A stretch of 64,000 bases of DNA from NCBI GenBank assembly GCA_964502145.1, contig CAZCVI010000010.1, positions 44,068-108,067 on the forward strand, read 5' to 3'. The number at the start of each line of letters is the position of its first letter. Position 1 is the first letter of the stretch. Under the pieces are notes generated by a model. That model was not told the origin of the DNA. It saw nothing but the letters and a program-made list of their open reading frames with translations, and ran no database searches. The DNA comes from an uncultured Clostridia bacterium. Lineage in GTDB: Bacteria > Acidobacteriota > Aminicenantia > UBA2199. Of this stretch, positions 34,870 through 47,858 are shown piece by piece. A program made the translations under genes and the position numbers.

Positions 34870-35168
34870 CGCTATTGCTCCTTTTTTTTGCTTTAAAATT
34901 AGTGATGTCTCCCTTCCATAAGGACATACCCCCGGGAGGAAAACATATTTTTTGGTTTAATATTTTAAGATAAACCAATAATCAAGTTTTGTCAAATGTT
35001 TTTCGATTATTTCAGCATAAAAATTTTGTCCACAGATGACACAGATTAAAAGGATTTAACGGATTAACCACAAAGAAAAGAGGGTATAGGATAAATCTGG
35101 AAAAAGAGGAAGGGCACGACGTCTAATTATTGAAGACCTCATGCCCTTCGGGGTTTGTTTGGTTTATT

Positions 35169-36785
35169 TTATTTTTTAAACTTAAGTTTGATATCACCAC
35201 GTTTACCGAGTTGCACGATATCGTCAGGCTTGACCAGGGTTTCGGTTATTTTCTGACCGTTCACGAACGTGCCATTGGTGGAGCCGAGGTCAACAATAAA
35301 GAACTGGTCGCCTTTGGGCAGGATACGCAGGTGATTCTTGGAGACAATTTCACTGTCAATATGGACGGAAGCTGTTTTGGGGTCCCGCCCGACAATTAAT
35401 GGATTGGCAGTGACATTATAAGTACCCACTTCCTCGCCTTTAATGATGACGGTGATGGTGCCAGAGATATCACCTTCCAACATGGTGCCATCTTCTGGAG
35501 CGACCTTGGTGTGATCGGCAGCGGGGTGGGGGGCTTCGGCGACGGGTGGAGCGGCTTGATGCGCGGCATCCTTGGCTGCAGAGGGACTAAATGAAACCCA
35601 TAACACCACCAGGATTAACAATATCAATACAATGGCAATAATGACAACAATTTTATTCTGCTGCCACATCTTTCCAAAGAATCCCATCTCATCGATTTTC
35701 TTTTGGATCACCTGGCTGAGTCTCTGGAGGTTGGGCTCGTTATCCATGTAGGTGAGGGAGGCATTCACCTGGCTCTGGGCATCAAACCAACGCTCTTCCC
35801 ACACGGAATCCATCAATTTATTAAACACGTTGGTGAAGTCAGAACTTTTATTGTATTCGACACCGGCATCCTGGATGAACTCCTTGGCAGAGTTGATGGG
35901 CACACAGAACTTAAAACCATCGGCCATGGTAGCGGCATAGGAGTGAACACCAATAACTTGGCCCTTGGTATCCACGGTGGGACCACCGGAATTGCCAGGG
36001 GAAGTGGCGCAATCGTGTTGAATCACGGACATACCTTTGTAATCTGTCTTAAGAGCAGAAATAGCACCCCGGGTGATGGAGGCTTTTAAGGTATTCTCTT
36101 TGCCTAACATAGGGAACCGTTGGGGATCAACGGCACCAGGAAAACCAATAGTAAACACGGGTTCTTGCAAGACGAGCTTGGAGGAATCACCGAGCATGAT
36201 CACGGGACAATTATCTCTTTCAATCTTGAGAACGGAAATATCTTTACCGCCATTCGGAATAGAGGGGCTGAATTTTTTTAGCTCGAATCTCAGGGTCTCG
36301 GAATTACTGAGGATGACATAGTTGATGGCACCATGATCGACTATCTGGGGTGACTGGTCCTTTTTGAATTTTTCAACGGCATCACTCAGTTCCTGCTGGT
36401 TGGGGTCCCTGCCGTTGGCCTTTTTAAAATCTTCTTTGATTTTATCGGCTATGGCATTGTCTAAAACTTTCTTGGCATAACCTTCTTTATCATTCATGTA
36501 CTCGTTATAGCTGTCCACGACATGGCCATTGGTCACGAGGTAACCATCGGGATTGATAAAGAAGCCGCTACCAGAGCCATAATTGGGGAGCTCTTGGGCT
36601 TGTCCACCCTGCAAGGTAAACTTAATAAACATACCGCTATAAATTAAAGCTACGGCGGGCTGAGTACGATAGGCGGTCATCTGCTCCTCGGTCAGTTTTT
36701 CGCTGGGTCCTGAGGAGCAAGAAACGGTTGTTAATATAAACGCGACGATCACAAAAAGAAAAAAAACTAATTTAGTTATCCTCAT
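35169..36785 (-). CDS. membrane-spanning fusion: lipoprotein-type signal, trypsin-like S1 serine protease domain, TM helix, cytoplasmic FHA domain
   Basis: 'LTTVSCSS' lipobox-like. His 'LVTNGHVV' and Ser 'GNSGGP' catalytic motifs. TM 'IVVIIAIVLILLILVVLWV'. C-terminal FHA 'LIVGRDPKTASVHIDSEIVSKNHLRI...FIVDLGSTNGTFVNGQ'. ATG directly follows the kinase stop (TAAATG). Confidence 0.7.
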   Translation of the reverse strand: MRITKLVFFLFVIVAFILTTVSCSSGPSEKLTEEQMTAYRTQPAVALIYSGMFIKFTLQGGQAQELPNYGSGSGFFINPDGYLVTNGHVVDSYNEYMNDKEGYAKKVLDNAIADKIKEDFKKANGRDPNQQELSDAVEKFKKDQSPQIVDHGAINYVILSNSETLRFELKKFSPSIPNGGKDISVLKIERDNCPVIMLGDSSKLVLQEPVFTIGFPGAVDPQRFPMLGKENTLKASITRGAISALKTDYKGMSVIQHDCATSPGNSGGPTVDTKGQVIGVHSYAATMADGFKFCVPINSAKEFIQDAGVEYNKSSDFTNVFNKLMDSVWEERWFDAQSQVNASLTYMDNEPNLQRLSQVIQKKIDEMGFFGKMWQQNKIVVIIAIVLILLILVVLWVSFSPSAAKDAAHQAAPPVAEAPHPAADHTKVAPEDGTMLEGDISGTITVIIKGEEVGTYNVTANPLIVGRDPKTASVHIDSEIVSKNHLRILPKGDQFFIVDLGSTNGTFVNGQKITETLVKPDDIVQLGKRGDIKLKFKK

Positions 36786-38108
36786 TTATTCCTCCTGAAA
36801 TGTGGGTGAGCTGGAAAAGCTCGAAAATTTTTCTTGAAACTTTATAATGAATTCATTGTTATGAATGGTCTGATTAGTTTTATTGTTCTGATTTTTCTGA
36901 TTGTTCAGATGGTTCTTATTATTCTGATTATTTTGATTATTTTGATACTTTGGATTGTAACCAATAGGGAGATTGCTTTCAGAGTAAGCAATGGCAATGA
37001 ATAAGAGGATCAATAGGGGGATTAATATGAATATCAGCAGCAATTTGCGTTTATCGCAGGTTTTAATGGATTTGAGTACTTTTTCCTGCACGACATTGGC
37101 ACTGGGAGAGATAGACGGCTTGATATCTGGCATTTTGACCTTGAGAAAGTTTAACGAAGGTAAATGGATGTGGGGTAATTTTTTTAATTTGGGCAAAGAT
37201 AAAAATGGTCTGGGTAATTTTATGCCTTTTGGCTTTTTAAAAGGAGCAGGACTCCCCTTTGGGGGGCTGAATTCGATGGATACGGCGTGGCCATCGAACC
37301 ATTTATCTAGTGCTTCTTTTAACGCACTGGCGTTGGGGAAACGCTGGGCGGGATTTTTAGCGAGAGCTTTCATAATCAATTCATCAATAGGCTTGGGAAT
37401 GGTGGGGCTCAGCTCGGATGGTTTGGGGGGAATTTGTTCCAGGTGGGCTTTTTGAATTTCAAAATGGCTGCCAGTGGGACTTTTAAAGGGCGTGGCACCG
37501 GTGAGCATTTCATAGAGGGTAACACCGATGGAATACACGTCGGCGGCAGCATCCACAGGTTGGCCGAGGATTTGTTCGGGGGCGGAATATAGGGGGGTAC
37601 CCAGTGGGGAACCGATCCGGGTTAACCCATCAATACCCTCGACCTTGGCAATCCCGAAATCACCGATTTTAATTTGGCCATGGCAGGTAATAAAAATATT
37701 GGCGGGTTTGATGTCCCGGTGCAACACGCCGCGACTGTGGGCGTAATTGAGACCGTCCAGAATGCGCGACACAATAGATAATGCCTGAGGCAGGGGAATT
37801 TTCCCGGATTCTTTAATAATGCTTTTGAGGGTCTGCCCCTCAATATATTCCATGACGATATAATAACTATCTTGCTGCTGATCAAAGGCATGGATGGTGA
37901 CGATATTGGCATGATTGAGCCGGGCTTGGGCAATAGCCTCTACTTTGAACCGCGCCATTAAACGGGGATTCTTGGTCAACTGGGGGGAGATGATCTTGAT
38001 GGCCACTTCCCGCTCAAGGGTGATATCCTTGGCCAAGTACACGGAACCCATACCGCCTTCGCCGAGCTTTTTAAGAATTCGATAATTGCCTAAACTTTGA
38101 CCTTCCAT
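36786..38108 (-). CDS. Hanks-type Ser/Thr protein kinase, membrane-anchored, Asn/Gln-rich tail
   Basis: 'LGEGGMGSVYLAKD...VAIK', 'HRDIKPANI', 'DFGIAKV'. TM helix near the C-terminus, then an 'NNQNNQNNKN' low-complexity tail. Confidence 0.85.
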   Translation of the reverse strand: MEGQSLGNYRILKKLGEGGMGSVYLAKDITLEREVAIKIISPQLTKNPRLMARFKVEAIAQARLNHANIVTIHAFDQQQDSYYIVMEYIEGQTLKSIIKESGKIPLPQALSIVSRILDGLNYAHSRGVLHRDIKPANIFITCHGQIKIGDFGIAKVEGIDGLTRIGSPLGTPLYSAPEQILGQPVDAAADVYSIGVTLYEMLTGATPFKSPTGSHFEIQKAHLEQIPPKPSELSPTIPKPIDELIMKALAKNPAQRFPNASALKEALDKWFDGHAVSIEFSPPKGSPAPFKKPKGIKLPRPFLSLPKLKKLPHIHLPSLNFLKVKMPDIKPSISPSANVVQEKVLKSIKTCDKRKLLLIFILIPLLILLFIAIAYSESNLPIGYNPKYQNNQNNQNNKNHLNNQKNQNNKTNQTIHNNEFIIKFQEKFSSFSSSPTFQEE

Positions 38109-38117
38109 TTTGCCTCT

Positions 38118-39098
38118 TCACTGGGGGTGGCTGGGAGTGGTGACGATCAAGTAAAAAATAATAGCACCCAACAGCAGTACCAGCAATCCTAACAGTAGAA
38201 ATAAACCGATTCTACGTCGTTTTTTCACGACTGGAACGGAGATAGAAGAAGTAATAGAAATAGGAACGGTATCGGTGAGATCGGTATTCTGGTGGGAATG
38301 GGTGCCATTTTCAGTAGAAACCACAATAACGGTGATATTATCGGGGCCACCGTTTTTTTTGGCTTCCTGGATCAACTGCTTGGCTATGGAGGCGTGTGAT
38401 GGACCGGAAAGAATTTCTCTGATATCGTTGTCCGGCACGACACCGTAAAGACCATCGGAGCATAATATATATTTCTGGCCTTTTTTAATGGGGATAGGTG
38501 GAAGTATCTGGATAGTGATTTGTGCCTTAGAGCCGATGGATTGATAGATAACGTTTCGTCTGGGGTGGTTGCGGGCTTCTTCCTCGTTAATCAAGCCGTC
38601 CTTGAGCAATTTCCCCACAAAGCTGTGATCCTCGGTCAACTGAACGAATTGGGGAATGGATTCGGGGCGGGTGCTGTCATTGGGCAGGGATTGAACATAG
38701 GACTTAATAGCAGCGGAACCGTTGGAATAGCGGTAAATCCGGCTGTCACCGACATGTCCGATGTAGCCGAGATCGCCTTGCACATACAACACGGAAAGGG
38801 TAGTGCCCATGCCGCTTTTTTTACTCATCTGGGTGCTTTCAAGGTAAAGCATATCGTTGATTTCATTGATGAGAGACTCTAAATCAATGGGAATGTTGTT
38901 TTTTCTATTTTTTTCTATTTTATGGACGAGCTCAGTCACAGCACTGCGACTGGCAACCTCGCCAGCATTGTGCCCACCCATGCCATCGGCCACGATAAAC
39001 AGGTATTCCTCGTTCCCAATTTTCCCGGCAAATTGGTAATCCTCGTTGTTGGGCCTGGCATTACCGACATCGGATAGACCGGTATAAAATAATTCCAT
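38118..39098 (-). CDS. PP2C-family Ser/Thr phosphatase with C-terminal TM anchor
   Basis: 'GNARPNNED', 'FIVADGMGGHNAGEVAS', 'DGL'. C-terminal hydrophobic helix. Confidence 0.8.
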   Translation of the reverse strand: MELFYTGLSDVGNARPNNEDYQFAGKIGNEEYLFIVADGMGGHNAGEVASRSAVTELVHKIEKNRKNNIPIDLESLINEINDMLYLESTQMSKKSGMGTTLSVLYVQGDLGYIGHVGDSRIYRYSNGSAAIKSYVQSLPNDSTRPESIPQFVQLTEDHSFVGKLLKDGLINEEEARNHPRRNVIYQSIGSKAQITIQILPPIPIKKGQKYILCSDGLYGVVPDNDIREILSGPSHASIAKQLIQEAKKNGGPDNITVIVVSTENGTHSHQNTDLTDTVPISITSSISVPVVKKRRRIGLFLLLGLLVLLLGAIIFYLIVTTPSHPQ

Positions 39099-39112
39099 GG
39101 TTTTTTATTTTT

Positions 39113-39472
39113 CTATTCTATTTCTGTGGATATGGATGGGTCTTCAATAAACTTGACCAAGAAATCTATACCCGCGGTATTAAAAAGGGTCTCATCGATG
39201 ATTTTCTCTTTAAATACGGGTTGGTTCTCAATGAATAGACCGGCGTTACTGTCCAGATCAGTGATCCATATGGCTGTCTGGGTATAGCGGATACTGAAGT
39301 GAAAGGGCTCCAAGCGGTCATCGGGTAAATAGATATCTGCATAGTGGCTGGAGCCAACAACGGTTTTACCGGCAAATAGCCGGTAATCTCTGCCTTTCCA
39401 TGGTCCGTTCAATACTAACAGCCACCCTATTAATTCGCGCTCATCTTCCAATACGGTTTTATCGTTATTCAT
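39113..39472 (-). CDS. FHA-domain protein
   Basis: 119 aa. 'GRDYRLFAGKTVVGSSHYADIYLPDDRLEPFHFSI...ITDLDSNAGLFIENQPV'. Stop is TAG. Confidence 0.7.
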   Translation of the reverse strand: MNNDKTVLEDERELIGWLLVLNGPWKGRDYRLFAGKTVVGSSHYADIYLPDDRLEPFHFSIRYTQTAIWITDLDSNAGLFIENQPVFKEKIIDETLFNTAGIDFLVKFIEDPSISTEIE

Positions 39473-39475
39473 GGG

Positions 39476-40057
39476 TTATAGGAATCTCCTCACTTTTTTA
39501 AATATCATCTCTTGATGTCCGATACGAATCCGGTCGCCATCGTCCAGGGGTTCGGTGACAATAATTTTTTCCTTTAACCAGGTGTGGTTGGTGGAGCCGA
39601 GGTCAGTCAGAGTGAAGGTATTGTTTTCGGCTTGGTAATGAATGATGGCGTGGAGTTTGGAGGCAAAGTCATCATTCACCTGGATGTCGGCATCAATACC
39701 TTTCCCGATAATGTTTTTCTCGCGGGTGATACGCACATCATGCAGGGGATGTCCCTCTTTATCAAGAAAAACAAGCCATGCAAAGAAAAGTTTCATACCT
39801 GGGAAATCTTCCATATTATCATCCAGAAACGTTTTGTCCGGATCGCTTTCCAGAACAGTTTTATCCGGGAACATGGTCAGGCTTTCCAGCACGGTTTTGT
39901 TTTCAGGTTCAGAAGGGATGGCATTTAATATTTCGGTGCTGAATCTTTCAACGGGTTTTAGGGGATCGGGTAAAATGGGGCTGCCGCAGAAAGGGCATGA
40001 TGCATTGGGGACATAATATCCAGAAATCTCTTTAGAACAATTTAAACATATATCCAT
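39476..40057 (-). CDS. zinc-ribbon + FHA-domain protein
   Basis: 'CLNCSKEISGYYVPNASCPFCGS' zinc ribbon. C-terminal FHA 'NIIGKGIDADIQVNDDFASKLHAII...LTDLGSTNHTWLKEK'. ATG 40057 with GGAG RBS preferred over GTG 40072. Confidence 0.65.
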   Translation of the reverse strand: MDICLNCSKEISGYYVPNASCPFCGSPILPDPLKPVERFSTEILNAIPSEPENKTVLESLTMFPDKTVLESDPDKTFLDDNMEDFPGMKLFFAWLVFLDKEGHPLHDVRITREKNIIGKGIDADIQVNDDFASKLHAIIHYQAENNTFTLTDLGSTNHTWLKEKIIVTEPLDDGDRIRIGHQEMIFKKVRRFL

Positions 40058-40181
40058 ATCACACTCCGACACTAGCGAAACATCGTTTTATGAAATTCAC
40101 TGCTTTTGTCTCTATACTTAGCTTCTTCATGTACAGAACTTTACCACCCTGTAAAAAAAATGTCAAGTTTTTTCCGATTTT

Positions 40182-41945
40182 TTATTTACTTCTCTCCCGT
40201 AGCGTATCAATGATGTCTTCAATAAAACTTCTCAGGGTTTTGTTGTTGGAGGTCATCAACAGTGTATATTTTGGGCCGCCCCGGGTTTTGATGATGAGGG
40301 CGGGGTTTTTCCGGTTCTTCTTTTTTTTGAAGATACGGACAAAATCGGCGGTCACATCTTGGGAAACCTGTTTGATCTGTGACATGGGTATAGAAAAAGA
40401 GTTTTTGTTGGTGGATTCTTTAAATGGGGCAAAGGAGAGGGTGCCATGGGTGATGCGCAGGATGCCATTGAAAATTTGCGCGCCCTGGTTTTGGTATTGG
40501 ATGCTAAAGTGGATGGACGGGTCGGCTTCCAGTGCTTTGAAGTAGTATGATCGCGCGTTCTTTTTTTCGCCATCGTAAAAATAGGCTTTGCCAATGGCCA
40601 GAAGAATTTCCCCGGATTGGACACCGTTTTTTACAGCATAACGACCGGCAGCCACGGCTTTTTTATATTCTTCATTTGTGATCAACCGCTCCATTCTGCG
40701 CAGGATATCGGCGGCGGTTCCGGGTACGGAAAGCTGGGTGGCAGGGGTGGTTTTGGCAGGTTCTTGAACGGGCGTGTTGGAAGGGGTGTTGCCACCGGGA
40801 GTGGGCGGTGGAGAGGAAGGGGTGGGAGTTTGGGGGGCGGGTTGGAGGGTATTGGGTATCTGGGCGGTGGGAGAGTGGCTGGAGATGGAGGGGGATGGAT
40901 TGTTAGCGGTGGTATGAGCCGTTTTGATGACCGGGGTAGAGCGGGTGTAGAACAGGAGGAAGAGGAGGAGGACGATTAACACTCCGGCCATAGCCAAAAT
41001 AGCGATGCGATGTTGCTTGCTGGGTAGGCGATTAAATTTGAATGTGGGGGTGAATTTTTTAGCCGTGGGTTTAGGTCCAGGGGCGGGGGTTGGGCTTTTT
41101 CCAGGTACAGGAGTCAGGGAAAAAATGGTTTCTTGGATAGCGGCCTCGAATTCGGCAATGTTTTGGAAGCGTTCCGCAGGGTCTTTGGCGATGCTTTTTA
41201 GAATCAAAGCTTCAACGGGGGCAGAGATGGCGGGATTAACCTGGGAAGGCTGACGGGGCACGGCATCAAGAGTTTGTTTGATGACATCGTAACTGGATTT
41301 GCCGGTGATAGTAAAGGGAAGAACGCCGGTAAGCATTTCATAGAGAGTAATACCGAGGGAATAAATATCGGTACGAATATCTGTTTTTTTCCCCAGTAAT
41401 TGTTCGGGTGAAGAATATACGGGGGAACCCAGAGCAGTTCCTACCTTGGTCAGTCCCTCGATACCCTTGACCTTGGCAATACCGAAATCGCAGATTTTGG
41501 CGGTTTGATTTTTGCTTAAAAAGAGATTGGAGGGTTTGATGTCGCGGTGCATAACGCCATTGGCATGGGCATACCCGATACCGCTCAATATTTGCAAGAA
41601 AATCTTTAATCCCTGAACGATGGGCATGGGGCCTTTTTCTTTGATGGATTCTTTCAGGTTTTGCCCTTCGACATATTCCATCACGATGTAATACGCATTT
41701 TTATCCTGGTCAAAGGAGTGGATGGTGACGATATGGCCGTGGTTGAGTTTGGCCTGGGCAATGGCTTCGACGCGGAACCGAGCCATTAATTCTTGACTAC
41801 GGGCGAGTTCGGGTGAAATGATCTTTATCGCTACTTCACGTTCCAGTGACAGGTCACGGGCCAGGAACACAGAACCCATTCCGCCTTCGCCGATCTTTTT
41901 CAAAATACGATAATTGCCTAAGATGGATCCGATTATTTGGTTCAT
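40182..41945 (-). CDS. Hanks-type Ser/Thr protein kinase with TM helix, Pro-rich linker and extracytoplasmic C-terminal domain
   Basis: 'IGEGGMGSVFLARD...VAIK', 'HRDIKPSNLF', 'DFGIAKV'. TM 'IAILAMAGVLIVLLLFLLFY'. Pro/Thr-rich linker, then a ~200-aa C-terminal domain. Confidence 0.85.
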   Translation of the reverse strand: MNQIIGSILGNYRILKKIGEGGMGSVFLARDLSLEREVAIKIISPELARSQELMARFRVEAIAQAKLNHGHIVTIHSFDQDKNAYYIVMEYVEGQNLKESIKEKGPMPIVQGLKIFLQILSGIGYAHANGVMHRDIKPSNLFLSKNQTAKICDFGIAKVKGIEGLTKVGTALGSPVYSSPEQLLGKKTDIRTDIYSLGITLYEMLTGVLPFTITGKSSYDVIKQTLDAVPRQPSQVNPAISAPVEALILKSIAKDPAERFQNIAEFEAAIQETIFSLTPVPGKSPTPAPGPKPTAKKFTPTFKFNRLPSKQHRIAILAMAGVLIVLLLFLLFYTRSTPVIKTAHTTANNPSPSISSHSPTAQIPNTLQPAPQTPTPSSPPPTPGGNTPSNTPVQEPAKTTPATQLSVPGTAADILRRMERLITNEEYKKAVAAGRYAVKNGVQSGEILLAIGKAYFYDGEKKNARSYYFKALEADPSIHFSIQYQNQGAQIFNGILRITHGTLSFAPFKESTNKNSFSIPMSQIKQVSQDVTADFVRIFKKKKNRKNPALIIKTRGGPKYTLLMTSNNKTLRSFIEDIIDTLRERSK

Positions 41946-42133
41946 CTATTTACTTTACCACTGCTTGATTTGAAAGTCAAGCACTGAAGACCGCCTTTAA
42001 GAAAGAGTTAAAGAGATTTTAAAAGGCACGGTGTTTAAAATTCCAGCACTTGATTGGAAAAAGAATTTAGGGTAAACTATAATCTGGTTGCGATCAAAAA
42101 CAATTTTAATGGATTCGTCCGAGGAGTAAAGAA

Positions 42134-43165
42134 ATGAATGAACAGCAAAATGAACAGCAAAATGTGCAAATAAAGATGGATGCAGGAGTGGTTGTTCATC
42201 TGTGGAATCATTGTCATCATTGCCACGCGGAACCTATTATAGGACGCAGATATGAATGTCAGAGCTGTCCGTCGGGACCGGATATTGATCTGTGCGAACC
42301 CTGTTATGAATTGTGGGGCAGGGGTGAGGTTGAACATCCTGCCAAAGATAGTGTTGCGTCTGATTTAACTATTACAGAGCATCGGTTCGAGATGTTTGAG
42401 GGGAAACCTTTGGCGTCATTTCAGGACTGGTTGCTGGTAAAACATCCAGTGGCCGCAGACCCGATTGTGCCGAAACAGGCGGTGTTAAGACCGATTTTTT
42501 CTGCGGGAGTGGATTCAGTGATTGGGAGCTATGCCTTTGTAGCACGTTTGGAAGGAGCGAAGCGACCGCTGATTTTAACGGCATTGCATGTGATGGATGA
42601 ATTGATCAAGAAGTTGGGGATAGATTGTTCACTGGGGCGTGAAGATGATAAAATTAGAAATTATACAGGGAAAGAGTTACCTGCGGTGGTGACGGAAGTG
42701 AACCTGTTTGATGTGTTTGCAGCCAATTGGATGATGGCTCCGATAGGCAATGGGGGCCCGATGCTGGTGTTACCAGATGCGGCGACTGGCGCGGAAGAAC
42801 CCTATTCCAATCGAGATATTGCAGCCTTTTGGGTACATTCGGCGGATGCGGGACATTTTAATCCGTTACCATTGGCCCAATCGGCACCACGGGTAGGTGA
42901 GCCAGTCTGGTTGGCGGCACGTCGGATGGACAATTCAGGAAAACGAACGCTCAAAGCGGTGGTAGTTGAATGTACGGAACGTTCATTGGTATTTAAGTAC
43001 GAAGGGGATGGCGAGAAACCAAAGTACACGAGTGGTGCTCCTATTTTGAACGGGAAGGGCGAAGTGGTGGGGATCAATGTGGGCGGCGGTCGATTAAACG
43101 AGGAAAACCTGGGACATGCGAACCATATAGAGAATATCCGCAGGCACCTGAGTAATGCGAGTTAA
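42134..43165 (+). CDS. ZZ-type zinc finger fused to a trypsin-like (S1) serine protease domain
   Basis: 'HCHHCHAEPIIGRRYECQSCPSGPDIDLCEPCY...HP' fits the ZZ pattern C-x2-C...G.RY.C..C..D.DLC..C...H. Protease: His 'LTALHV', Asp, Ser 'YTSGAPIL...GINVGG'. GAGGAG RBS. Confidence 0.55.
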   Translation: MNEQQNEQQNVQIKMDAGVVVHLWNHCHHCHAEPIIGRRYECQSCPSGPDIDLCEPCYELWGRGEVEHPAKDSVASDLTITEHRFEMFEGKPLASFQDWLLVKHPVAADPIVPKQAVLRPIFSAGVDSVIGSYAFVARLEGAKRPLILTALHVMDELIKKLGIDCSLGREDDKIRNYTGKELPAVVTEVNLFDVFAANWMMAPIGNGGPMLVLPDAATGAEEPYSNRDIAAFWVHSADAGHFNPLPLAQSAPRVGEPVWLAARRMDNSGKRTLKAVVVECTERSLVFKYEGDGEKPKYTSGAPILNGKGEVVGINVGGGRLNEENLGHANHIENIRRHLSNAS

Positions 43166-43491
43166 TCGGTTTTTGTTAGTAAATGGGAACCATAATGCCG
43201 TTTGAAGCGGGTGGAGGAGTATTTTTCCAGTTTCCATTGGGGGATTTTGCAAACTGGGCAGACTTTGTTGAACCATTTATTGCGAAGCCAGCGGGCGGAA
43301 CGGCTGTTGCGAGAATTGTTGATGAGAAATGTTTTGTTGCAATGGGTGGTGATGCGGGCTTGTTCCCCGATTTTTTCAACGGTTTTGATGCCATGTAAAA
43401 TGCCTTGACGGGAAGGCCATAGTTTGATCGTGTCGATCAATTTGAATAATTCAATACGTTTGCGGTAGTACCGCCTGGGTTGTTCGGTCAT
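43162..43491 (-). CDS. pylSn: pyrrolysyl-tRNA synthetase N-terminal tRNA-binding domain protein
   Basis: 'LWPSRQGILHGIK...INNSRNSRSARWLRNKWFNKVCPVCK' parallels the PylS N-terminal 'LWMSRTGTLHKIK...[26 protein letters not shown]'. Last gene of the pyl operon. Confidence 0.7.
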   Translation of the reverse strand: MTEQPRRYYRKRIELFKLIDTIKLWPSRQGILHGIKTVEKIGEQARITTHCNKTFLINNSRNSRSARWLRNKWFNKVCPVCKIPQWKLEKYSSTRFKRHYGSHLLTKTD

Positions 43492-43530
43492 GGTAGTGGC
43501 TCATTTTTAATTGATTTATATAGTGCAAAA

Positions 43531-43583
43531 GTGGACTAACTGGACGATATGGACTGAGTGGACAATGTGGACGAGAGGTGGAT
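43531..43583. repeat. tandem 9-bp array NTGGACNNN x5-6 in the pylD-pylSn intergenic region
   Basis: gTGGACtaa cTGGACgat aTGGACtga gTGGACaat gTGGACgag aggTGGAT, read directly. Confidence 0.85.
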
Positions 43584-43653
43584 TTTTGGAAAAGTTTTTG
43601 GGCTGACAGAGGCACTGTGAAGATGGGTTTAAGATAATGCGATCTAATGTTTT

Positions 43654-44538
43654 TCATTGCTGATTTTTGCGAAAATAATGGACGGCGGCGTCAACGGCCA
43701 TAACGGCGGTGCCGATTTGCAGGGGATCGTGCAAGAGACGGAGTTTTATCTGTTGGATGGCAGCACTGGTTAATCCCAAAGGCACACCGGGCGCGGCGAT
43801 ATAGGTGTGTGGATTGATGTCTGATTTTTGGATGGTATTGGCGGCATTGGTGGCTTCAATGATGAACGAGTGACGCGATAACGCGGGAGCCAAAGCAGGT
43901 TCAATAGAGATGCGGGATGAGCTGCCGGTTATCCTCATAATTTCCATGGCTGCGGCAGAACTGCGTTGTTGGTGGATATCAAACAAAGATACTCGCGCCC
44001 CGCGTTTGATAGCTTCGATGGCAGAATACGTCCCGACTGCTCCACAGCCAATGATTAACAGCTCCCTGTCTTTTAAGCCCACTTTGGGCGTTGGAGCTTG
44101 ATGGCGGATCATCAATTCCAATCCAGCTACAAAACCACGGGCAGTAGATGGGGTATTGTCCACAACGCGACTGTTGCGGGTGTCCAGCGCAATAAAACGT
44201 TTGTCATCGGCCATCATCACAATGGCGGCGCCAGCTTCCACTGCCTCGGCTAGACCCGCAACATCGGGCTCACGGGTAACAAAAGATTTAAATCCAATGT
44301 GCTGCACAATAGCAGCCACAGTGCTGGAAAAACCTCCAATCACACCCTGACCAGACATGATTGGAACAACCGCGATAAGAGTGGATGGAATACAGACTTG
44401 AAGCTGCTGGCTGGTGATGCCCAAGGCATAACAGGCAATCCCTTGCAAGGTCGTGCCTGTTTGCAATTGCAAAAGAGTGTCGTAGAGAAGGAGCTGGGCA
44501 GTTAAGTCTTTGATGTCGTTTACGGTCAGACGAGTCAT
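43654..44538 (-). CDS. pylD: pyrrolysine biosynthesis dehydrogenase
   Basis: 'IAVVPIMSGQGVIGGFSSTVAAIVQHIGFKSFVT', 'AAIVMMADD', 'FIIEATNAANTI', 'APGVPLGL' parallel Methanosarcina PylD blocks. AGGAAA RBS. Confidence 0.85.
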   Translation of the reverse strand: MTRLTVNDIKDLTAQLLLYDTLLQLQTGTTLQGIACYALGITSQQLQVCIPSTLIAVVPIMSGQGVIGGFSSTVAAIVQHIGFKSFVTREPDVAGLAEAVEAGAAIVMMADDKRFIALDTRNSRVVDNTPSTARGFVAGLELMIRHQAPTPKVGLKDRELLIIGCGAVGTYSAIEAIKRGARVSLFDIHQQRSSAAAMEIMRITGSSSRISIEPALAPALSRHSFIIEATNAANTIQKSDINPHTYIAAPGVPLGLTSAAIQQIKLRLLHDPLQIGTAVMAVDAAVHYFRKNQQ

Positions 44539-44545
44539 GTTTTTC

Positions 44546-45685
44546 CTAGCGGATAATGCTTTGCCTTATATTTTGAATAACGCGGTCGCTTTTTTGCTGG
44601 GCCGACTGGAGGTCTGTGGCTTCAATGATCAAGGTAGCCACCCATGAATAGGCACTGGGGCTATAATTGGTGATGGCTTCATCGGCACCAAAAAAGTCGT
44701 GGCACAGAAACAACGGGCCAACCTCTGACATAATATGCTCACCACTAATTCGTATCCCACGGGGGGAAACTTCAATGTGCTGGTAAATCGCACCCCGTTT
44801 TTGGTCAGCAGCTTTTATAACTTTTTGACTGGTAAAACATTGGGCCAATAACGGCATCATGTTCCACCCGGAAGATTGGAAAACAGCGGTGGGAGTCTGA
44901 CTGGGGAAACGGGCGTCAATCTCCAATACTTTTAATTGGTTATCATGAAGAATAATTTCAACATCCATGATCCCCCGCAACTGGATGGATTGTGCAATGT
45001 GCAAGGAAATCTTCTCGAACTGCTTTACCTGGGTAGGAGATAATAACGTGGGGGCCGATACTCGTTTACAATCATAACTGTCATCCATGTCAAGGTCAGT
45101 GACTTGCAAGGGAATATAATTCCCGGGAGTGCCCATCACTTCAAGAGAATAGGACGGCCCTTCGACGTATTCCTGAATGACCCAGCCGGGAGGCGGCAGG
45201 GAGGCGGAAAAGGAGGAAAAGAACTCTTCCAGTTGCGGTCTATCATTAAAAAGCCGAACGCCACGACTACCACTACTGCTCTCAGGTTTGGCGATAACTG
45301 GGAATGAACAATTTGGCCAGGGTTTGGGGGCAGGCACGCCAAGTTCTGCAAAAAGATGGTCGGAACGGAGCTTGGAAGAAGAAATAGCATAAGTCGCTGC
45401 ATCAAAGGCAAAAGGAATGGCAGAGGTGAGACTCCACTGGTGTAATGCAGCGAGTGCGGCGGCATTCTCAGTGGCGGGGACAACAAGGTCTATATCTTTG
45501 ATATCTCTTATGCAAGATTGCCATTTCGACTGGTCCGTGACATCCAGCTCAATGAAACGATGGCACATTTGGGCAGCGGCCACATGGGGGTGTTTGTCGA
45601 TTAAAAGGGTTTCCCATCCGGCATGATGGGCCAAATAAGCGACTTCTACGCCTTGAAGACTGCCGCCGACGATAAGGATTTTCAT
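44546..45685 (-). CDS. pylC: 3-methylornithine--L-lysine ligase (ATP-grasp)
   Basis: 'KILIVGGSLQGVEVAYLAHHAG', 'LEIDARFPSQTPT' (identical to the PylC block). AGGAG RBS. Start overlaps the pylB stop (ATGA). Own stop is TAG. Confidence 0.85.
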   Translation of the reverse strand: MKILIVGGSLQGVEVAYLAHHAGWETLLIDKHPHVAAAQMCHRFIELDVTDQSKWQSCIRDIKDIDLVVPATENAAALAALHQWSLTSAIPFAFDAATYAISSSKLRSDHLFAELGVPAPKPWPNCSFPVIAKPESSSGSRGVRLFNDRPQLEEFFSSFSASLPPPGWVIQEYVEGPSYSLEVMGTPGNYIPLQVTDLDMDDSYDCKRVSAPTLLSPTQVKQFEKISLHIAQSIQLRGIMDVEIILHDNQLKVLEIDARFPSQTPTAVFQSSGWNMMPLLAQCFTSQKVIKAADQKRGAIYQHIEVSPRGIRISGEHIMSEVGPLFLCHDFFGADEAITNYSPSAYSWVATLIIEATDLQSAQQKSDRVIQNIRQSIIR

Positions 45686-46770
45686 GATTTAAGCTCCTGG
45701 TTTTTTAAAACGCGGTTCTTTATCCAATCTTGGTATTGCTGGTGGGAAGCGATTTGTAAACCGCACTCTGTCAATATGGTTAACACGTTATCGGTGGTTC
45801 TGCGGGCATCATCAATATCCAGTGAGGATTGCGCTACTCCAGCCAGTCCCTGTTGGGGTGGCACGATGGAAGTCACAACATTGGCACCTGCATCCATACG
45901 CCGCTTCAAGCCAGCCAGCCCTTCGACATCCAATGTGGCGGGAATGAGTCGATCAGGGAACAAAATACGCATGAGCGCGATAAGAATTAATTCGGTCAAA
46001 GGTTCTGGAAAAGGGAAATGGGCCATCGGTGTGCCCTGTTGCGGCACAAAATTCATGGCCCGCACTTGGTCAGCGTTACTGGCCCGCATCTCGGTTAGTG
46101 AATGGGCGATATCATGGGAAGTTTCGCCCACGCCCACGAGGATGCCTTCTTCGGTTAACATCCCCAGTTGATGGGCTTGGTGTTTGCTATTTAAACGGGT
46201 CAAATAATCCTGGCCGGGTCTAAGCTGTTGGAAAAGAGTTGGGTTGTGAGTCTCCTGGTAACAAGCAAACCAGGAAGCACCGGCAACGGCAAACTGGGCC
46301 AATATAGGGGGGGGGACTACGCCGGGGGAGATCATAATGGGAAGAAAAACGGCGGTTTTTATAGCTTGCACCAAGCGGATCAAGGAGTGGAAACCATGCT
46401 CACCTGAAGGGTCTTCGCCCATGGTCAGATCAATCAGATGAACACCAGAACGTGCCAGTTGAATGGCGGCTTCAATGATTTCGGTTTCTGCTTTCCTGTA
46501 CCTGAAACGCGGCGAAAGGGTATTCTGGGCACGGTAAAAACAAAAATTACAATTGTTGCGACAATAGGTGCTAATATAAAGGAAACCATAGAGAAAAACA
46601 TGGTTCCCGAAATACTGCTGACGGATAGAACGGGCAGTGCTAAAAAGGGCTTCCAATAGCTGGGGTTGGCGAAGTTGCAGGATAGTGGTGATTTCCTTCT
46701 GGGTGAGGGCGTGCTGGTGGGAGGCTTTTGCCAGTATGGTGTCCAATATAGGCGGGGGAGTGAAATGCAC
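45682..46770 (-). CDS. pylB: 3-methylornithine synthase (radical SAM lysine mutase)
   Basis: 'YFGNHVFLYGFLYISTYCRNNCNFCFYRAQN', 'LIDLTMGEDP', 'LPIMISPG', 'YQETH', 'GANVVTSIVPP' parallel PylB. GTG start with GAGG RBS. Confidence 0.85.
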   Translation of the reverse strand: MHFTPPPILDTILAKASHQHALTQKEITTILQLRQPQLLEALFSTARSIRQQYFGNHVFLYGFLYISTYCRNNCNFCFYRAQNTLSPRFRYRKAETEIIEAAIQLARSGVHLIDLTMGEDPSGEHGFHSLIRLVQAIKTAVFLPIMISPGVVPPPILAQFAVAGASWFACYQETHNPTLFQQLRPGQDYLTRLNSKHQAHQLGMLTEEGILVGVGETSHDIAHSLTEMRASNADQVRAMNFVPQQGTPMAHFPFPEPLTELILIALMRILFPDRLIPATLDVEGLAGLKRRMDAGANVVTSIVPPQQGLAGVAQSSLDIDDARRTTDNVLTILTECGLQIASHQQYQDWIKNRVLKNQELKS

Positions 46771-46779
46771 TGGTGCGCC

Positions 46780-47622
46780 TCAAATGTTTAACCGAATACC
46801 GTTGAGATAGGCGAGACTGCGACCCATTTTACCAAGGTTGTGGCTGTTCTGAGTGACCATCAGCAAACGTTCCAGCCCGAATCCGATGCCCACCCATGGT
46901 TCGACAATGCGCCAGGCCCGGTCCAACGGATGGGGACCGATGGCAGCCGAACCCACCTCTATTTTATCTTTTCCGGCGACCACGTCGATGGTCTCACCAT
47001 AGACGTTAGAGGTTTCGGTTTCCAGAGTATAATCGGTTAATCCGGCGGTGCGGGTCACCAGGGCGGCGAGTTCTTCCAGTCGTGCTTGCCGGTTTTCTAA
47101 AGGTAATCCCATTTCCACGAGATTGAGCATGGTAAATTCACTGGAATGTAACGAACCCTGGGACTCCTTGCGAAAACAAGAACCGACTTCAAAGATAGAC
47201 ACGGGTTTCTCCCATAAACGCAATAAATCCTTTAATACATAATATAAATGAGGGGCCAGCATGGGACGGAGACATTTGTCCTTGTCCAACCAATATACCT
47301 GGGAGAAGAGGGGATGGGTTTCGTCGATGGTCATTTTGGCCAATAGCCCGCGAGACATGATGGTGGGGGTAATGACCTGCACAAAACCGGCGGCGGTAAG
47401 GGTTTCTATCAATTGGCTTTCTAAGCGGCACAGGGCGGGCCTGTGCTCATGTTCCCGGAAATAAGTTAATTGGGTTCTGGCTTGTTTGATATAATGATTT
47501 TCTAATTTATGAAAAGAGTTGTCCCGGTCTGCTGGGCTGGTGAATGCTTGTGATAGTTCCTGGGGGGGGACTTCTAGTTCGATCAATCTTCGATGTTGGA
47601 CTTCAGACCAAGTGAGTGTCAT
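46780..47622 (-). CDS. pylSc: pyrrolysyl-tRNA synthetase catalytic domain (bacterial split form)
   Basis: 'PTIMSRGLLAKMTIDETHPLFSQVYWLDKDKCLRPMLAPHLYYVL...IFEVGSCFRKESQGSLHSSEFTMLN' is near-identical in pattern to Desulfitobacterium PylSc. 280 aa. Confidence 0.9.
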   Translation of the reverse strand: MTLTWSEVQHRRLIELEVPPQELSQAFTSPADRDNSFHKLENHYIKQARTQLTYFREHEHRPALCRLESQLIETLTAAGFVQVITPTIMSRGLLAKMTIDETHPLFSQVYWLDKDKCLRPMLAPHLYYVLKDLLRLWEKPVSIFEVGSCFRKESQGSLHSSEFTMLNLVEMGLPLENRQARLEELAALVTRTAGLTDYTLETETSNVYGETIDVVAGKDKIEVGSAAIGPHPLDRAWRIVEPWVGIGFGLERLLMVTQNSHNLGKMGRSLAYLNGIRLNI

Positions 47623-47624
47623 GG

Positions 47625-47700
47625 ATTGCCTGGGGAATTATGGGAATGGGAGTTATGGGAATTATGGGAAGAATGGGGGTTATGGGAAAAGAGGGGTAGT
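47625..47700. repeat. tandem 9-bp array (TTATGGGAA-like units x ~7) in the pylSc 5' leader
   Basis: gaattatgg gaatgggag ttatgggaa ttatgggaa gaatggggg ttatgggaa, read directly. Confidence 0.8.
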
Positions 47701-47773
47701 GGTGTGTGAGCCAGCGGTTTGGGTAATCTGTTTAAATTGCTTGCCATATTATACCTACTCAAACTAATAAACG

Positions 47774-47844
47774 GCGAGGAGTTCGGGAGTTGCACCCGAC
47801 TATATGGATTTAGAATCCATACGATCCACTTACGATCCACTCCC
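47774..47844 (-). tRNA. pylT: tRNA-Pyl (anticodon CUA, amber suppressor)
   Basis: Minus-strand sequence GGGGAGT-G-GATC-GTAAGTG-GATC-G-TATGGA-TTCTAAA-TCCATA-TAG-TCGGG-TGCAACT-CCCGA-ACTCCTC-G(CC). 6-bp anticodon stem, CUA anticodon, 3-nt variable loop, one nt between acceptor and D stems, G73 discriminator. Immediately upstream of pylSc. Confidence 0.8.
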
Positions 47845-47858
47845 CATTCGCCGAAATA

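What the first reader, a model, noticed from the sequence alone, without database searches (positions are those of the whole stretch)
35169..41945. Six-gene Ser/Thr phospho-signalling operon: STK - ZnR-FHA - FHA - PP2C - STK - (S1 protease-TM-FHA fusion)
All genes are co-oriented and tightly spaced. The first kinase's stop abuts the protease start as TAAATG. The operon holds two membrane-anchored Hanks kinases, a PP2C phosphatase with a TM anchor and two FHA phosphothreonine readers, one with a zinc ribbon. The last gene is unusual. A periplasmic trypsin-like protease domain with a lipoprotein-type signal is joined through one TM helix to a cytoplasmic FHA domain. This wires a phosphothreonine reader directly to an extracytoplasmic protease. 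It is reminiscent of FhaA/FhaB/PstP/PknAB clusters but lacks the rodA/pbpA genes. No established family with this architecture is known to me.
Basis: partly seen in the sequence, partly recalled or inferred. Interest (0 to 1): 0.6.

Follow-up and report, generated by a model that had tools for sequence, protein, structure and literature searches.

The report
Phosphothreonine-reading tail on a periplasmic protease
This Aminicenantes-like bacterium has a kinase/phosphatase operon ending in a membrane-spanning HtrA-type protease whose cytoplasmic tail is a phosphothreonine-binding FHA domain; this layout is conserved across Acidobacteriota but uncharacterised, and it probably lets phosphorylation inside the cell control protein cleavage outside it.

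Summary
Six co-oriented minus-strand genes at 35169-41945 encode STK1, ZnR-FHA, FHA, a TM-anchored PP2C, STK2, and a 538-aa protein. That protein has a signal peptide, an HtrA-like S1C protease (H88/D182/S266), a helical hairpin, one TM helix, a disordered linker and an FHA domain.

It is not a one-off. About 195 retrieved homologues, down to 26% identity, share the architecture. All are from MAGs or metagenomes, labelled Aminicenantes, Thermoanaerobaculia, Bryobacterales or Acidobacteriota where named. In 14 of 17 other loci a Hanks kinase sits in the same cluster, usually with PP2C and small FHA genes.

A T-Φ-Φ-[D/E] motif occurs five times in the operon. It appears only in the three FHA proteins, always just upstream of the FHA core, and it is conserved in the family linker.

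The same protease scaffold elsewhere carries rhodanese or cNMP-binding tails instead. One rhodanese variant examined has no kinase neighbours.

My best reading is a kinase/phosphatase-controlled periplasmic protease with an FhaB/FipA-like tail. The closest working parallel is the mycobacterial Rv1747/PknF pair. The direction of signalling and the substrates are inferred, not shown.

No characterised member turned up in the literature I searched. I rate it a new variant of a known kind.

The parts
40182..41945 (-). STK1: Hanks Ser/Thr kinase, 587 aa. It has VAIK38, HRD133 and DFG153, a TM at 314-332, a P/T/S-rich spacer, then TPR repeat(s) and an unassigned C-terminal domain.
   Evidence: Pkinase E 4e-56. 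Motifs and TM. TPR seen. The C-terminal domain has only faint GRAM/DUF956 hits (E about 0.07), and its AF2 model is poor (pLDDT 50). The kinase domain is 53% identical to STK2.
41952..41980 (-). Promoter-like site upstream of STK1 (TTGACT-17-TAAAGT, with TG).
   Evidence: Consensus scan only. Not evidence of function.
40138..40166 (-). Promoter-like site (TTGACA-17-TAAAGT, with TG) in the 124-nt gap between STK1 and ZnR-FHA. It may be an internal promoter for the five-gene core.
   Evidence: Consensus scan. Gap size.
39476..40057 (-). ZnR-FHA: 193 aa from the ATG, or 198 aa from GTG 40072. [quoted passage not shown]
   Evidence: FHA E 1e-14. CLNC...CPFC. Gene callers on the identical contig use the 193-aa start.
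39821..39904 (-). Three tandem T-Φ-Φ-[D/E] motifs (ENKTVLESLTMFPDKTVLESDPDKTFLD) in ZnR-FHA. These are candidate phospho-acceptor or FHA-ligand sites.
   Evidence: The orthologue in L088 also has three TVLE repeats.
39113..39472 (-). Small FHA protein, 119 aa, with an N-terminal DKTVLED motif (39443-39463).
   Evidence: FHA E 6e-9 and Yop-YscD_cpl E 3e-11. Motif. The L088 orthologue begins MDKTVLEE.
38118..39098 (-). PP2C Ser/Thr phosphatase, 326 aa, with a C-terminal TM anchor (301-319). The layout is PstP/Stp1-like.
   Evidence: PP2C_2 E 7e-12. NCBIfam Stp1/IreP scores 231.7 bits against a cutoff of 230. TM.
36786..38108 (-). STK2: Hanks kinase, 440 aa. It has VAIK35, HRD130 and DFG150, a TM at 356-374, and only about 65 aa of N/Q-rich extracytoplasmic tail. 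Its stop codon abuts the protease ATG (TAAATG), and an AGGAGG lies just upstream.
35169..36785 (-). Protease-TM-FHA, 538 aa: an HtrA-like S1C protease with a cytoplasmic FhaB/FipA-like FHA tail.
   Evidence: Pfam, AF2 pLDDT 85, Foldseek against HtrA1/DegS/DegQ/MucD at E about 1e-15, NCBIfam.
36714..36785 (-). Signal peptide or N-terminal anchor (MRITKLVFFLFVIVAFILTTVSCS). The lipobox-like TVSC Cys is not conserved in the family.
   Evidence: Hydropathy, AF2 helix 2-21, alignment.
35856..36653 (-). Periplasmic S1C protease domain with triad H88, D182 and S266 (GNSGGP). It has a family-specific helical insert of about 55 aa between the His and the Asp. There is no PDZ domain.
   Evidence: Triad columns are invariant or nearly so in A1 and intact in about 190 of 195 members. 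Helices 88-144 appear in the model. Best structural matches are HtrA-family proteins.
35688..35840 (-). Conserved periplasmic helical hairpins after the protease domain (residues 316-366, with P351 invariant). No family could be assigned.
   Evidence: Pfam gave nothing at E<=5.
35589..35654 (-). Transmembrane helix (KIVVIIAIVLILLILVVLWVSF).
   Evidence: KD 3.79, AF2 helix 378-399. Homologues carry basic residues on its C-terminal side.
35475..35486 (-). T434-M-L-E motif in the disordered cytoplasmic linker, 32 residues upstream of the FHA Gly-Arg. It is a candidate phospho-acceptor or FHA ligand.
   Evidence: Found in 86 of 195 family linkers, against 2.7±1.6 in shuffled linkers.
35175..35462 (-). 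Cytoplasmic FHA domain with the pThr-binding residues G466-R467, S482, H485 and N504.
   Evidence: FHA E 2e-17. These residues are invariant or nearly so. pLDDT >90.
35101..35149 (-). Intrinsic-terminator-like hairpin plus CUCUUUUU, 20 nt after the protease stop.
   Evidence: dG -26.4 kcal/mol, z -5.5, 0 of 200 shuffles as stable. Sequence.

Best explanation
This is a conserved Acidobacteriota Hanks-kinase signalling module. Its effector is a membrane-spanning HtrA-family (S1C) protease that lacks a PDZ domain. The protease domain and a helical hairpin face the periplasm. One TM helix leads to a disordered cytoplasmic linker and an FHA domain, and this tail has the same layout as actinobacterial FhaB/FipA.

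The co-encoded kinase(s) most likely phosphorylate threonines in the T-Φ-Φ-[D/E] motifs. These motifs sit just upstream of the FHA core in all three FHA proteins of the operon. The FHA domains then bind those phosphothreonines in cis or in trans. This would change the assembly state or partners of the protease tails, and so the activity or placement of the periplasmic protease (HtrA proteases work as oligomers). The membrane-anchored PP2C would reset the system. Overall, signalling would run inside-out, from cytoplasmic phosphorylation to extracytoplasmic proteolysis.

What is shown: the architecture, the topology logic, the intact catalytic and pThr-binding residues, the conserved gene linkage, and the conserved motif. 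What is inferred: who phosphorylates what, the direction of signalling, an oligomerisation mechanism, and the substrates, which remain unknown.
For: 1. Domains, triad and FHA ligand-binding residues are intact and conserved down to 26% identity.
2. The model is confident. The protease domain matches HtrA1, DegS, DegQ and MucD.
3. Seventeen other loci were examined. Fourteen have a Hanks kinase in the same co-oriented cluster, two are cut by contig ends, and one has only PP2C. Gene order varies and the flanks are unrelated. In the nine loci with called gene coordinates, the kinase directly abuts the protease gene in six, from a 4-nt overlap to a 92-nt gap.
4. The minimal form is a two-gene protease-FHA plus STK cassette (L084). 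This mirrors pknF-Rv1747, where the kinase phosphorylates linker threonines that the effector's own FHA domains bind, and phosphorylation activates the effector (PMC3138270).
5. The T-Φ-Φ-[D/E] motif is found five times in the operon and only in the three FHA proteins. In the family linker it occurs in 86 of 195 members against 2.7 in shuffles, and 60 of those have it at a fixed 32 residues from the GR. Orthologues in L088 repeat the pattern.
6. The same protease scaffold carries other cytoplasmic reader or sensor tails: two FHA domains, rhodanese, or rhodanese plus cNMP-binding. The one rhodanese locus examined lacks kinase, PP2C and FHA neighbours, whereas the two-FHA variant has a kinase next door. 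This argues that the tail is the input and the protease is the output.
7. The tail aligns to the FhaB/FipA profile across TM, linker and FHA.
Against: - There is no experimental datum for any family member.
- The motif is strict only in the Aminicenantes-like branch and degenerates to [KR]-T-V-x in distant members.
- The family sequences are related, so the shuffle test overstates independence.
- The kinases themselves carry no such motif, so docking of the FHA on the kinase is not supported by sequence.
- One close homologue (L091) has PP2C but no kinase within 10 kb.
- How a single TM helix would transmit a signal is conjecture, because multimer modelling was not available.
- STK2 has almost no ectodomain. 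That fits equally well with the protease ectodomain acting as its sensor (outside-in signalling).
Confidence: 0.55

Rival explanations
1. Outside-in co-receptor. The periplasmic protease/helical ectodomain senses an envelope cue, for example unfolded proteins as DegS does. Through its FHA tail it then docks on and modulates the partner kinase. The protein would serve as the missing sensor of an ectodomain-less kinase.
For: STK2, which is translationally coupled to the protease gene, has only about 65 aa of N/Q-rich sequence outside the membrane. DegS-like proteases are known envelope sensors, and DegS is among the fold matches. FHA proteins can regulate kinases.
Against: In most relatives the adjacent kinase is 480-670 aa with its own large C-terminal region. 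The scaffold also occurs with a cNMP-binding tail and no kinase domain of its own. There the cytoplasmic domain can only be an input. The catalytic triad is under purifying selection, so proteolysis itself matters. The kinases lack the conserved T-Φ-Φ-[D/E] motif.
Confidence: 0.2
2. Passive tether. The FHA tail only localises a constitutively active quality-control or processing protease to phosphorylated membrane complexes, such as a kinase or cell-envelope assembly site (as has been reported for FhaB/FipA). The tail does not regulate catalysis.
For: The tail resembles FhaB/FipA. The operon composition parallels fhaA-fhaB-pstP-pknA-pknB. Localisation is the commonest role of FHA domains (established knowledge).
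Against: A conserved candidate phospho-site lies in the protein's own linker. The tail is swapped for small-molecule-type sensor domains. No rodA, pbpA, fts or PASTA genes are linked in any locus examined. The main functional paper on FipA is marked retracted (PMC2797604).
Confidence: 0.2
3. An anti-phage or conflict system in which kinase signalling triggers a protease effector.
For: Both kinases hit the PADLOC PD-T4-6 and Mad6 kinase models, and the protease weakly hits RT-Protease_XI. One relative (L083) has a vWA-OmpA gene upstream.
Against: Those hits are generic to any Hanks kinase or trypsin fold. The FHA proteins have no PADLOC hit, and PP2C has only one weak hit (PDC-M21C, E 2.6e-9). 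No known system architecture is matched. The flanks are housekeeping genes (pheST, secA, atp, yidC), not defence islands. An exported protease cannot act on cytoplasmic phage targets.
Confidence: 0.03
4. Assembly or gene-calling artefact that fuses a protease gene to an FHA gene.
For: None found.
Against: An identical protein occurs on independent ENA, Logan, NCBI and JGI assemblies. About 195 homologues have the same continuous architecture.
Confidence: 0.01

Closest known systems
Mycobacterium tuberculosis Rv1747 (FHA-bearing ABC transporter) with its operon kinase PknF
   Same: A membrane effector carries cytoplasmic FHA domain(s) and is encoded next to a Hanks kinase, in a two-gene operon like L084 here. 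The kinase phosphorylates threonines in the effector's own disordered linker. The effector's FHA domains bind them, and phosphorylation positively regulates function (PMC3138270).
   Different: The effector there is an ABC exporter with two N-terminal FHA domains. Here it is an exported S1C protease with one C-terminal FHA. No homology exists outside the FHA domain. Nothing has been tested experimentally here.
FhaB/FipA (Rv0019c) and the actinobacterial fhaA-fhaB-pstP-rodA-pbpA-pknA-pknB cluster
   Same: The TM-linker-FHA tail aligns to the FhaB profile over positions 13-153 of 158. The operon likewise holds two FHA proteins, a TM-anchored PP2C and two paralogous TM kinases.
   Different: FhaB is about 155 aa with no ectodomain, whereas here a 380-aa periplasmic protease module precedes the TM. 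The score of 65 bits is below the 125-bit cutoff. There is no rodA or pbpA, and no PASTA domain in the kinases (they score 323-333 bits against the 450 cutoff of the PASTA-kinase model). There is no DUF3662-type FhaA. The FipA functional paper is retracted.
HtrA/DegP/DegQ/DegS family (MEROPS S1C)
   Same: The chymotrypsin fold and H-D-S triad are shared, with a GNSGGP serine box. The best structural matches have E about 1e-15 and target TM-score about 0.8. Both are extracytoplasmic.
   Different: There is no PDZ domain. The protein is anchored by a C-terminal TM, plus an N-terminal signal, rather than by an N-terminal anchor. It has a helical insert of about 55 aa between the His and the Asp, and a helical hairpin in place of the PDZ. 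It has a cytoplasmic FHA tail. All NCBIfam HtrA models score far below their cutoffs (89 against 416 bits).
FHA-FHA-Trypsin protein NP_811686.1 of Bacteroides thetaiotaomicron (2008 survey of prokaryotic serine proteases)
   Same: It combines FHA and a trypsin-family protease in one bacterial polypeptide. It is noted only as an architecture (PMC2605481).
   Different: The domain order is reversed and there are two FHA domains. It is uncharacterised. I did not test its relationship to this family.
T6SS threonine-phosphorylation pathway (PpkA/PppA/Fha-TssL)
   Same: A Hanks kinase and a PP2C pair control an envelope-spanning machine through an FHA domain that binds a phosphothreonine on a membrane protein (PMC3953482, listed).
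   Different: The FHA protein there is soluble and the output is secretion. No T6SS genes are present here.

Membership tests
FHA domain (Pfam PF00498) | Profile score above the gathering threshold in all three FHA-bearing proteins | tested here: met
   Scores are 64.0, 55.2 and 36.6 bits against a cutoff of 20.7.
FHA domain (Pfam PF00498) | Conserved pThr-binding residues (Gly-Arg, Ser-x-x-His, Asn-Gly) | tested here: met
   G466, R467, S482, H485 and N504 are invariant or nearly so in 34 diverse members. 158 of 195 members match all three strict patterns.
FHA domain (Pfam PF00498) | Actual binding of phosphothreonine peptides | not testable with these tools
   This needs ITC or a pull-down with pT peptides.
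HtrA/DegP family (S1C) | Chymotrypsin fold with a His-Asp-Ser triad | tested here: met
   H88, D182 and S266. Foldseek matches HtrA1, DegS and DegQ at E about 1e-15.
HtrA/DegP family (S1C) | At least one C-terminal PDZ domain | tested here: not met
   No PDZ hit in Pfam. The model shows helices, then a TM, then FHA after the protease domain.
HtrA/DegP family (S1C) | NCBIfam Do/HtrA/DegS model cutoffs | tested here: not met
   The best hit, TIGR02037, scores 89.3 bits against a cutoff of 416.
HtrA/DegP family (S1C) | Trimer-based oligomer | not testable with these tools
   Only single-chain prediction was available.
FhaB/FipA (NCBIfam NF049868) | Model cutoff of 125 bits | tested here: not met
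   The score is 65.4 bits, E 6e-18, with residues 386-528 aligned to profile positions 13-153 of 158.
FhaB/FipA (NCBIfam NF049868) | N-terminal TM helix, disordered linker, C-terminal cytoplasmic FHA | tested here: met
   TM at 379-397, low-pLDDT linker at 403-438, FHA at 442-537. Here this module is the tail of a larger protein.
Actinobacterial fhaA-pknB cell-wall/division cluster | Linked rodA and pbpA, and a PASTA-domain kinase | tested here: not met
   The neighbours are pheST and a pyl cluster. The kinases score 323-333 bits against the 450 cutoff of the PASTA-kinase model, and only the kinase domain aligns.
Hanks-type Ser/Thr kinases (Pfam PF00069) | Profile above threshold, with catalytic VAIK, HRD and DFG motifs | tested here: met
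   Scores are 190.8 and 200.5 bits against a cutoff of 31.7. All motifs are present in both kinases.
Stp1/IreP PP2C phosphatases (NCBIfam NF033484) | Model cutoff of 230 bits | tested here: met
   The score is 231.7 bits, which passes only marginally. There is an extra C-terminal TM anchor.
Known anti-phage defence systems (PADLOC) | Matches to the components of a defined system | tested here: not met
   Only generic kinase or trypsin-fold hits and one weak PP2C hit (PDC-M21C) were found. The two FHA proteins have no hit.

The most novel reading that the evidence does not exclude
A general, previously undescribed mode of inside-out transmembrane signalling in diderm bacteria. In it, a family of PDZ-less HtrA-type periplasmic proteases is gated by interchangeable cytoplasmic reader domains: FHA for kinase-written phosphothreonine, cNMP-binding for cyclic nucleotides, and rhodanese. 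In the FHA branch, kinase phosphorylation of a T-Φ-Φ-[D/E] site in the tail linker would drive FHA-pThr head-to-tail assembly of the tails. The three-motif ZnR-FHA protein might bridge them. Assembly of the tails would then switch the periplasmic protease oligomer on or off.
Probability: 0.3. Interest if true: 0.75.

Novelty: new variant of a known kind. Interest (0 to 1): 0.55.

Why it matters
Bacterial Hanks-kinase pathways are known mostly through cytoplasmic targets. Regulated extracytoplasmic proteolysis, as with DegS or site-1 proteases, is known to be triggered from outside the cell. If this protease is controlled by cytoplasmic threonine phosphorylation, it would reverse that logic, letting the cell's interior decide when proteins are cut in the periplasm.

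The module is compact. In its minimal form it is two genes, and the candidate phospho-site is clear, so the hypothesis can be tested directly in vitro.

It would also give a first functional handle on Ser/Thr signalling in Aminicenantes and other Acidobacteriota, which are abundant and largely uncultured. It would provide a comparison point for the poorly understood FhaB/FipA proteins of Actinobacteria.

Tried and rejected
- afdb50 fold search: the library was unavailable, so I could not list UniProt or AFDB members or their organisms.
- AF2 of the STK1 ectodomain from a single sequence gave pLDDT 50. The domain after the TPR stays unassigned. The faint GRAM and DUF956 Pfam hits (E about 0.07) are not significant.
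- Pfam on the post-protease helical region gave nothing.
- Literature searches and targeted reads of three of the hits found no description of a protease-TM-FHA protein. The exception is the FHA-FHA-Tryp architecture listing in PMC2605481. The two Aravind-group conflict-system papers mention FHA and trypsin only as separate effector domains.
- Defence-system reading: rejected (and the housekeeping flanks).
- ZZ-Trypsin_2 neighbour as a seventh component: rejected. It is not found next to the module in any other locus, and it resembles the protease only at fold level.
- Kinase juxtamembrane region as the carrier of the conserved motif: no T-Φ-Φ-[D/E] occurs in either kinase or in PP2C.
- My regex-based scan for small FHA proteins in distant loci was too strict. 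It recovered only five, so the motif's status in distant small FHA proteins is only sketched.
The nine full-length genome loci are therefore a lower bound and do not give a phyletic distribution.

Full report
**1. What is in the sequence**

Pfam confirms every domain call:
- STK1 (587 aa): Pkinase, E 4e-56, plus a weak TPR hit.
- ZnR-FHA (193 aa from the ATG, 198 aa from the upstream GTG): FHA, E 1e-14. It also has CLNC...CPFC.
- A 119-aa FHA protein.
- PP2C (326 aa).
- STK2 (440 aa): Pkinase, E 4e-59.
- A 538-aa protein with Trypsin_2 at residues 72-280 (E 4e-25) and FHA at 464-527 (E 2e-17).

Both kinases have VAIK, HRD and DFG motifs. Each kinase and the PP2C has one strongly hydrophobic TM segment after its catalytic domain. 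The two kinase domains are 53% identical paralogues.

The gaps between genes are 124, 3, 14, 9 and 0 nt. The TAAATG junction is real and is preceded by AGGAGG. It joins STK2, the second kinase in transcription order, to the protease gene. The 124-nt gap after STK1 holds a promoter-like site. The tight unit is therefore five genes, and STK1 may be transcribed separately.

A stable hairpin followed by a U-tract lies 20 nt after the protease stop (dG -26.4 kcal/mol, z -5.5). pheS follows 299 nt downstream with its own promoter-like site. The operon therefore ends with the protease gene.

**2. Anatomy of the last gene**

An AlphaFold2 model built on 34 family members is confident (mean pLDDT 85). 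It shows these elements in order:
- an N-terminal hydrophobic helix (residues 2-21);
- a β-rich protease domain, interrupted by three helices (88-144) between the catalytic His and Asp;
- helical hairpins (316-366);
- a long TM helix (378-399);
- a disordered stretch (403-438, pLDDT <50);
- an eleven-strand FHA sandwich (442-537, pLDDT >90).

Foldseek places the protease domain with HtrA1, DegS, DegQ, MucD and M. tuberculosis HtrA (E about 1e-15, target TM-score about 0.8). There is no PDZ domain.

The triad H88/D182/S266 and the FHA ligand-binding residues (G466-R467, S482, H485, N504) are invariant or nearly so across members down to 26% identity. About 190 of 195 full-length members keep the catalytic His and Ser boxes, and about five look degenerate.

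The topology (protease outside, FHA inside) rests on several lines of evidence:
- the N-terminal signal-like segment;
- the second TM helix;
- basic residues on the C-terminal side of that TM in homologues;
- the extracytoplasmic location of all HtrA relatives (established knowledge);
- the need for an FHA domain to be in the compartment where the kinase domains are.

The lipobox-like LTTVSC is present here. Its Cys is not conserved in the family, so lipidation is not a family trait.

**3. It is a family, and the gene linkage is conserved**

The word-indexed search found 566 clusters at E<=1e-3. All of the best 120 hits that are not obvious fragments carry Trypsin_2 and FHA together. Labels exist only for MAGs: Candidatus Aminicenantes, Acidobacteriota, Thermoanaerobaculia. 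Annotations are generic ('FHA domain-containing protein', 'serine protease Do').

The exhaustive phmmer run found 151 representatives (clusters at 50% identity) at E<=1e-30. Of the 266 sequences retrieved, 195 have the full architecture. An identical protein is present on independent assemblies, so this is not an assembly artefact.

I examined 17 other loci.

From metagenome or MAG contigs with called genes:
- L083: protease-FHA > STK > 165-aa ORF > FHA > PP2C.
- L084: protease-FHA > STK only.
- L086: PP2C > STK > protease-FHA.
- L087: protease-FHA > STK > ZnR-FHA > PP2C.
- L088: FHA > FHA > PP2C > STK(TPR) > protease-FHA.
- L090: a two-FHA variant followed by an STK.
- L092: STK > PP2C > FHA > protease-FHA.
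- L091: PP2C > protease-FHA, with no kinase within 10 kb.

From species-representative genomes, analysed by tblastn:
- L003, labelled Syntrophaceae UBA2188, has the same order as the window, plus a trailing kinase.
- L005 and L007 (Bryobacterales, Acidobacteriota) have protease-FHA > FHA > PP2C > STK, with a second STK in L005.
- L006 and L009-L011 (Thermoanaerobaculia) have the same set of PP2C, protease-FHA, ZnR-FHA, STK, FHA and STK genes. In L009 and L011 the 5' end is cut by the contig.
- L004 and L008 are cut by contig ends immediately after the cluster begins.

In total, 14 of 17 loci contain a kinase in the cluster. In the loci with called gene coordinates, the kinase and protease genes are immediate neighbours in six, from a 4-nt overlap to a 92-nt gap. 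The flanks differ in every lineage (pheST, secA, atp/yidC, groEL and others). The conserved unit is therefore the module itself. Its minimal form is the protease-FHA plus kinase pair.

**4. A conserved threonine motif**

The pattern T-[VILMF]-[VILMF]-[DE] occurs five times in the six operon proteins plus the divergent neighbour. All five are in the three FHA proteins, in the segment just N-terminal to the FHA core:
- three tandem copies in ZnR-FHA (NKTVLES, DKTVLES, DKTFLDD);
- one at the N-terminus of the small FHA protein (DKTVLED);
- one in the protease tail (DGT434MLEGD).

The L088 orthologues show the same arrangement: three TVLE repeats, and MDKTVLEE.

Across the family, 86 of 195 linkers carry the motif, against 2.7±1.6 (maximum 9) in composition-preserving shuffles. 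In 60 of them it sits exactly 32 residues before the Gly-Arg of the FHA domain. It is an island of conservation in an otherwise variable, disordered linker. A second Thr (DKT, at -40) is also frequent.

In more distant branches the motif degenerates to [KR]-T-V-x. Because the sequences are related, the shuffle test shows conservation, not independent recurrence.

I infer that these are the kinase's acceptor sites and the FHA domains' ligands. An acidic or aliphatic residue at pT+3 is what FHA domains typically select (established knowledge). This has not been shown.

**5. The tail is exchangeable**

Other hits share the same protease scaffold, with the His-to-Asp helical insert, the helical hairpin with its LPxxPD-like motif, and the TM. 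They carry different cytoplasmic tails:
- two FHA domains (P0140, P0170);
- FHA plus DUF4328 (P0238);
- rhodanese (P0169);
- rhodanese plus a cyclic-nucleotide-binding domain (P0259).

The one rhodanese locus examined has no kinase, PP2C or FHA neighbour (L089). The two-FHA variant is followed by a kinase (L090).

A cNMP-binding domain is an input domain. A protein made only of it and an exported protease makes sense only if the cytoplasmic domain controls the protease. This is my main argument for inside-out signalling in the FHA branch. It is an argument by analogy within the family and rests on few examples.

**6. Comparison with known systems**

NCBIfam has no model that the whole protein passes. 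HtrA-type models score far below their cutoffs. Residues 386-528 align to the FhaB/FipA (Rv0019c) model across its TM, linker and FHA (65 bits against a cutoff of 125). The protein therefore looks like an FhaB-type membrane FHA adaptor that has acquired a periplasmic HtrA-like module.

It lacks rodA, pbpA and PASTA domains. The principal functional paper on FipA is marked retracted, so little can be transferred from it.

The best working parallel is Rv1747/PknF. In that pair:
- the kinase and an FHA-bearing membrane effector form a two-gene operon;
- the kinase phosphorylates two threonines in the effector's linker;
- the effector's FHA domains bind them;
- phosphorylation activates the effector (PMC3138270).

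PADLOC gives only generic kinase and trypsin-fold hits. A defence role is unlikely.

A 2008 survey listed an FHA-FHA-Trypsin protein in Bacteroides thetaiotaomicron without further study (PMC2605481). I found no paper describing or testing a protease-TM-FHA protein. The library does not cover all journals.

**7. Verdict**

The best explanation is a Hanks-kinase/PP2C module whose effector is a periplasmic HtrA-like protease that reads, and is probably written on by, threonine phosphorylation through an FhaB-like cytoplasmic tail. I put about 0.55 on that overall statement. I put about 0.3 on the specific inside-out mechanism gated by oligomerisation.

Outside-in sensing and passive tethering remain live rivals. 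STK2 has almost no ectodomain, which favours outside-in sensing.

It is a new variant of known kinds (FHA-tailed membrane effectors, HtrA proteases), not a new category. It is conserved, uncharacterised and directly testable.

Noticed in passing
window 43162-47845 (minus strand): There is a complete bacterial-type pyrrolysine cluster immediately upstream of the operon. It comprises tRNA-Pyl (CUA) at 47773-47845, a pylSc-like class II synthetase at 46780-47622, pylB (radical SAM) at 45682-46770, pylC (ATP-grasp) at 44546-45685, pylD at 43654-44538 (PylD_N, E 2e-33), and a 109-aa candidate pylSn at 43162-43491 with no Pfam hit. So this Aminicenantes-like genome appears to encode the 22nd amino acid.
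   Followed up: partly
window 47917-50141 (minus strand): An MttB-family (trimethylamine methyltransferase) gene at 48618-50141 (E 8e-74) reads as an uninterrupted 507-aa ORF, with no in-frame TAG. It is followed by a B12-binding-like gene at 47917-48618, next to the pyl cluster. I did not examine whether it is a Pyl-dependent or a non-Pyl MttB.
   Followed up: no
window 42134-43165 (+): A divergently transcribed 343-aa protein combines an N-terminal ZZ-type zinc finger (E 2e-7) with a Trypsin_2 domain (E 5e-7). It has no signal or TM segment. It is not conserved next to the module in other loci, and it is related to the operon protease only at fold level.
   Followed up: partly
window 28930-31161 (minus strand): A 743-aa membrane protein with no Pfam hit has a long Gln-rich tandem repeat (QGQQTQSGQQ...; DNA periods 24/51/75 at 29328-30186). 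This explains the strong AT skew (-0.33) and the overlapping long ORFs in this region.
   Followed up: partly
L086 11575-12045 and L092 11561-12274: In two relatives, a PEMT/ICMT-family membrane methyltransferase gene directly follows the protease-FHA gene. In L086 it overlaps by 4 nt. It may be an accessory component in some lineages.
   Followed up: no
L091 9095-11620: A close Aminicenantes homologue (65% identity, P0040) has only a PP2C gene next to the protease-FHA gene. There is no kinase within 10 kb. This is an exception to the kinase linkage.
   Followed up: no
P0060, P0062, P0064, P0085, P0192 (family members): A few full-length members have degenerate catalytic boxes, for example TSGNVV or THGQLV in place of TNGHVV, and GNTGGP in place of GNSGGP. 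They may be pseudo-proteases that keep the FHA tail.
   Followed up: no
P0259, P0169, P0238, P0220 (metagenomic relatives): The same protease-helical-TM scaffold carries other tails: rhodanese, rhodanese plus cNMP-binding, FHA plus DUF4328 (four further TM helices), or an F5/8 type C domain after a second TM segment.
   Followed up: partly
L088 3458-6312: Two Peptidase_C10 (streptopain-like) genes lie directly upstream of the FHA-FHA-PP2C-STK-protease cluster, in the same orientation.
   Followed up: no
L083 9642-10139: A 165-aa ORF with a lipoprotein-like N-terminus (…MLSAC) and no Pfam hit is inserted between the kinase gene and the FHA gene of the module.
   Followed up: no
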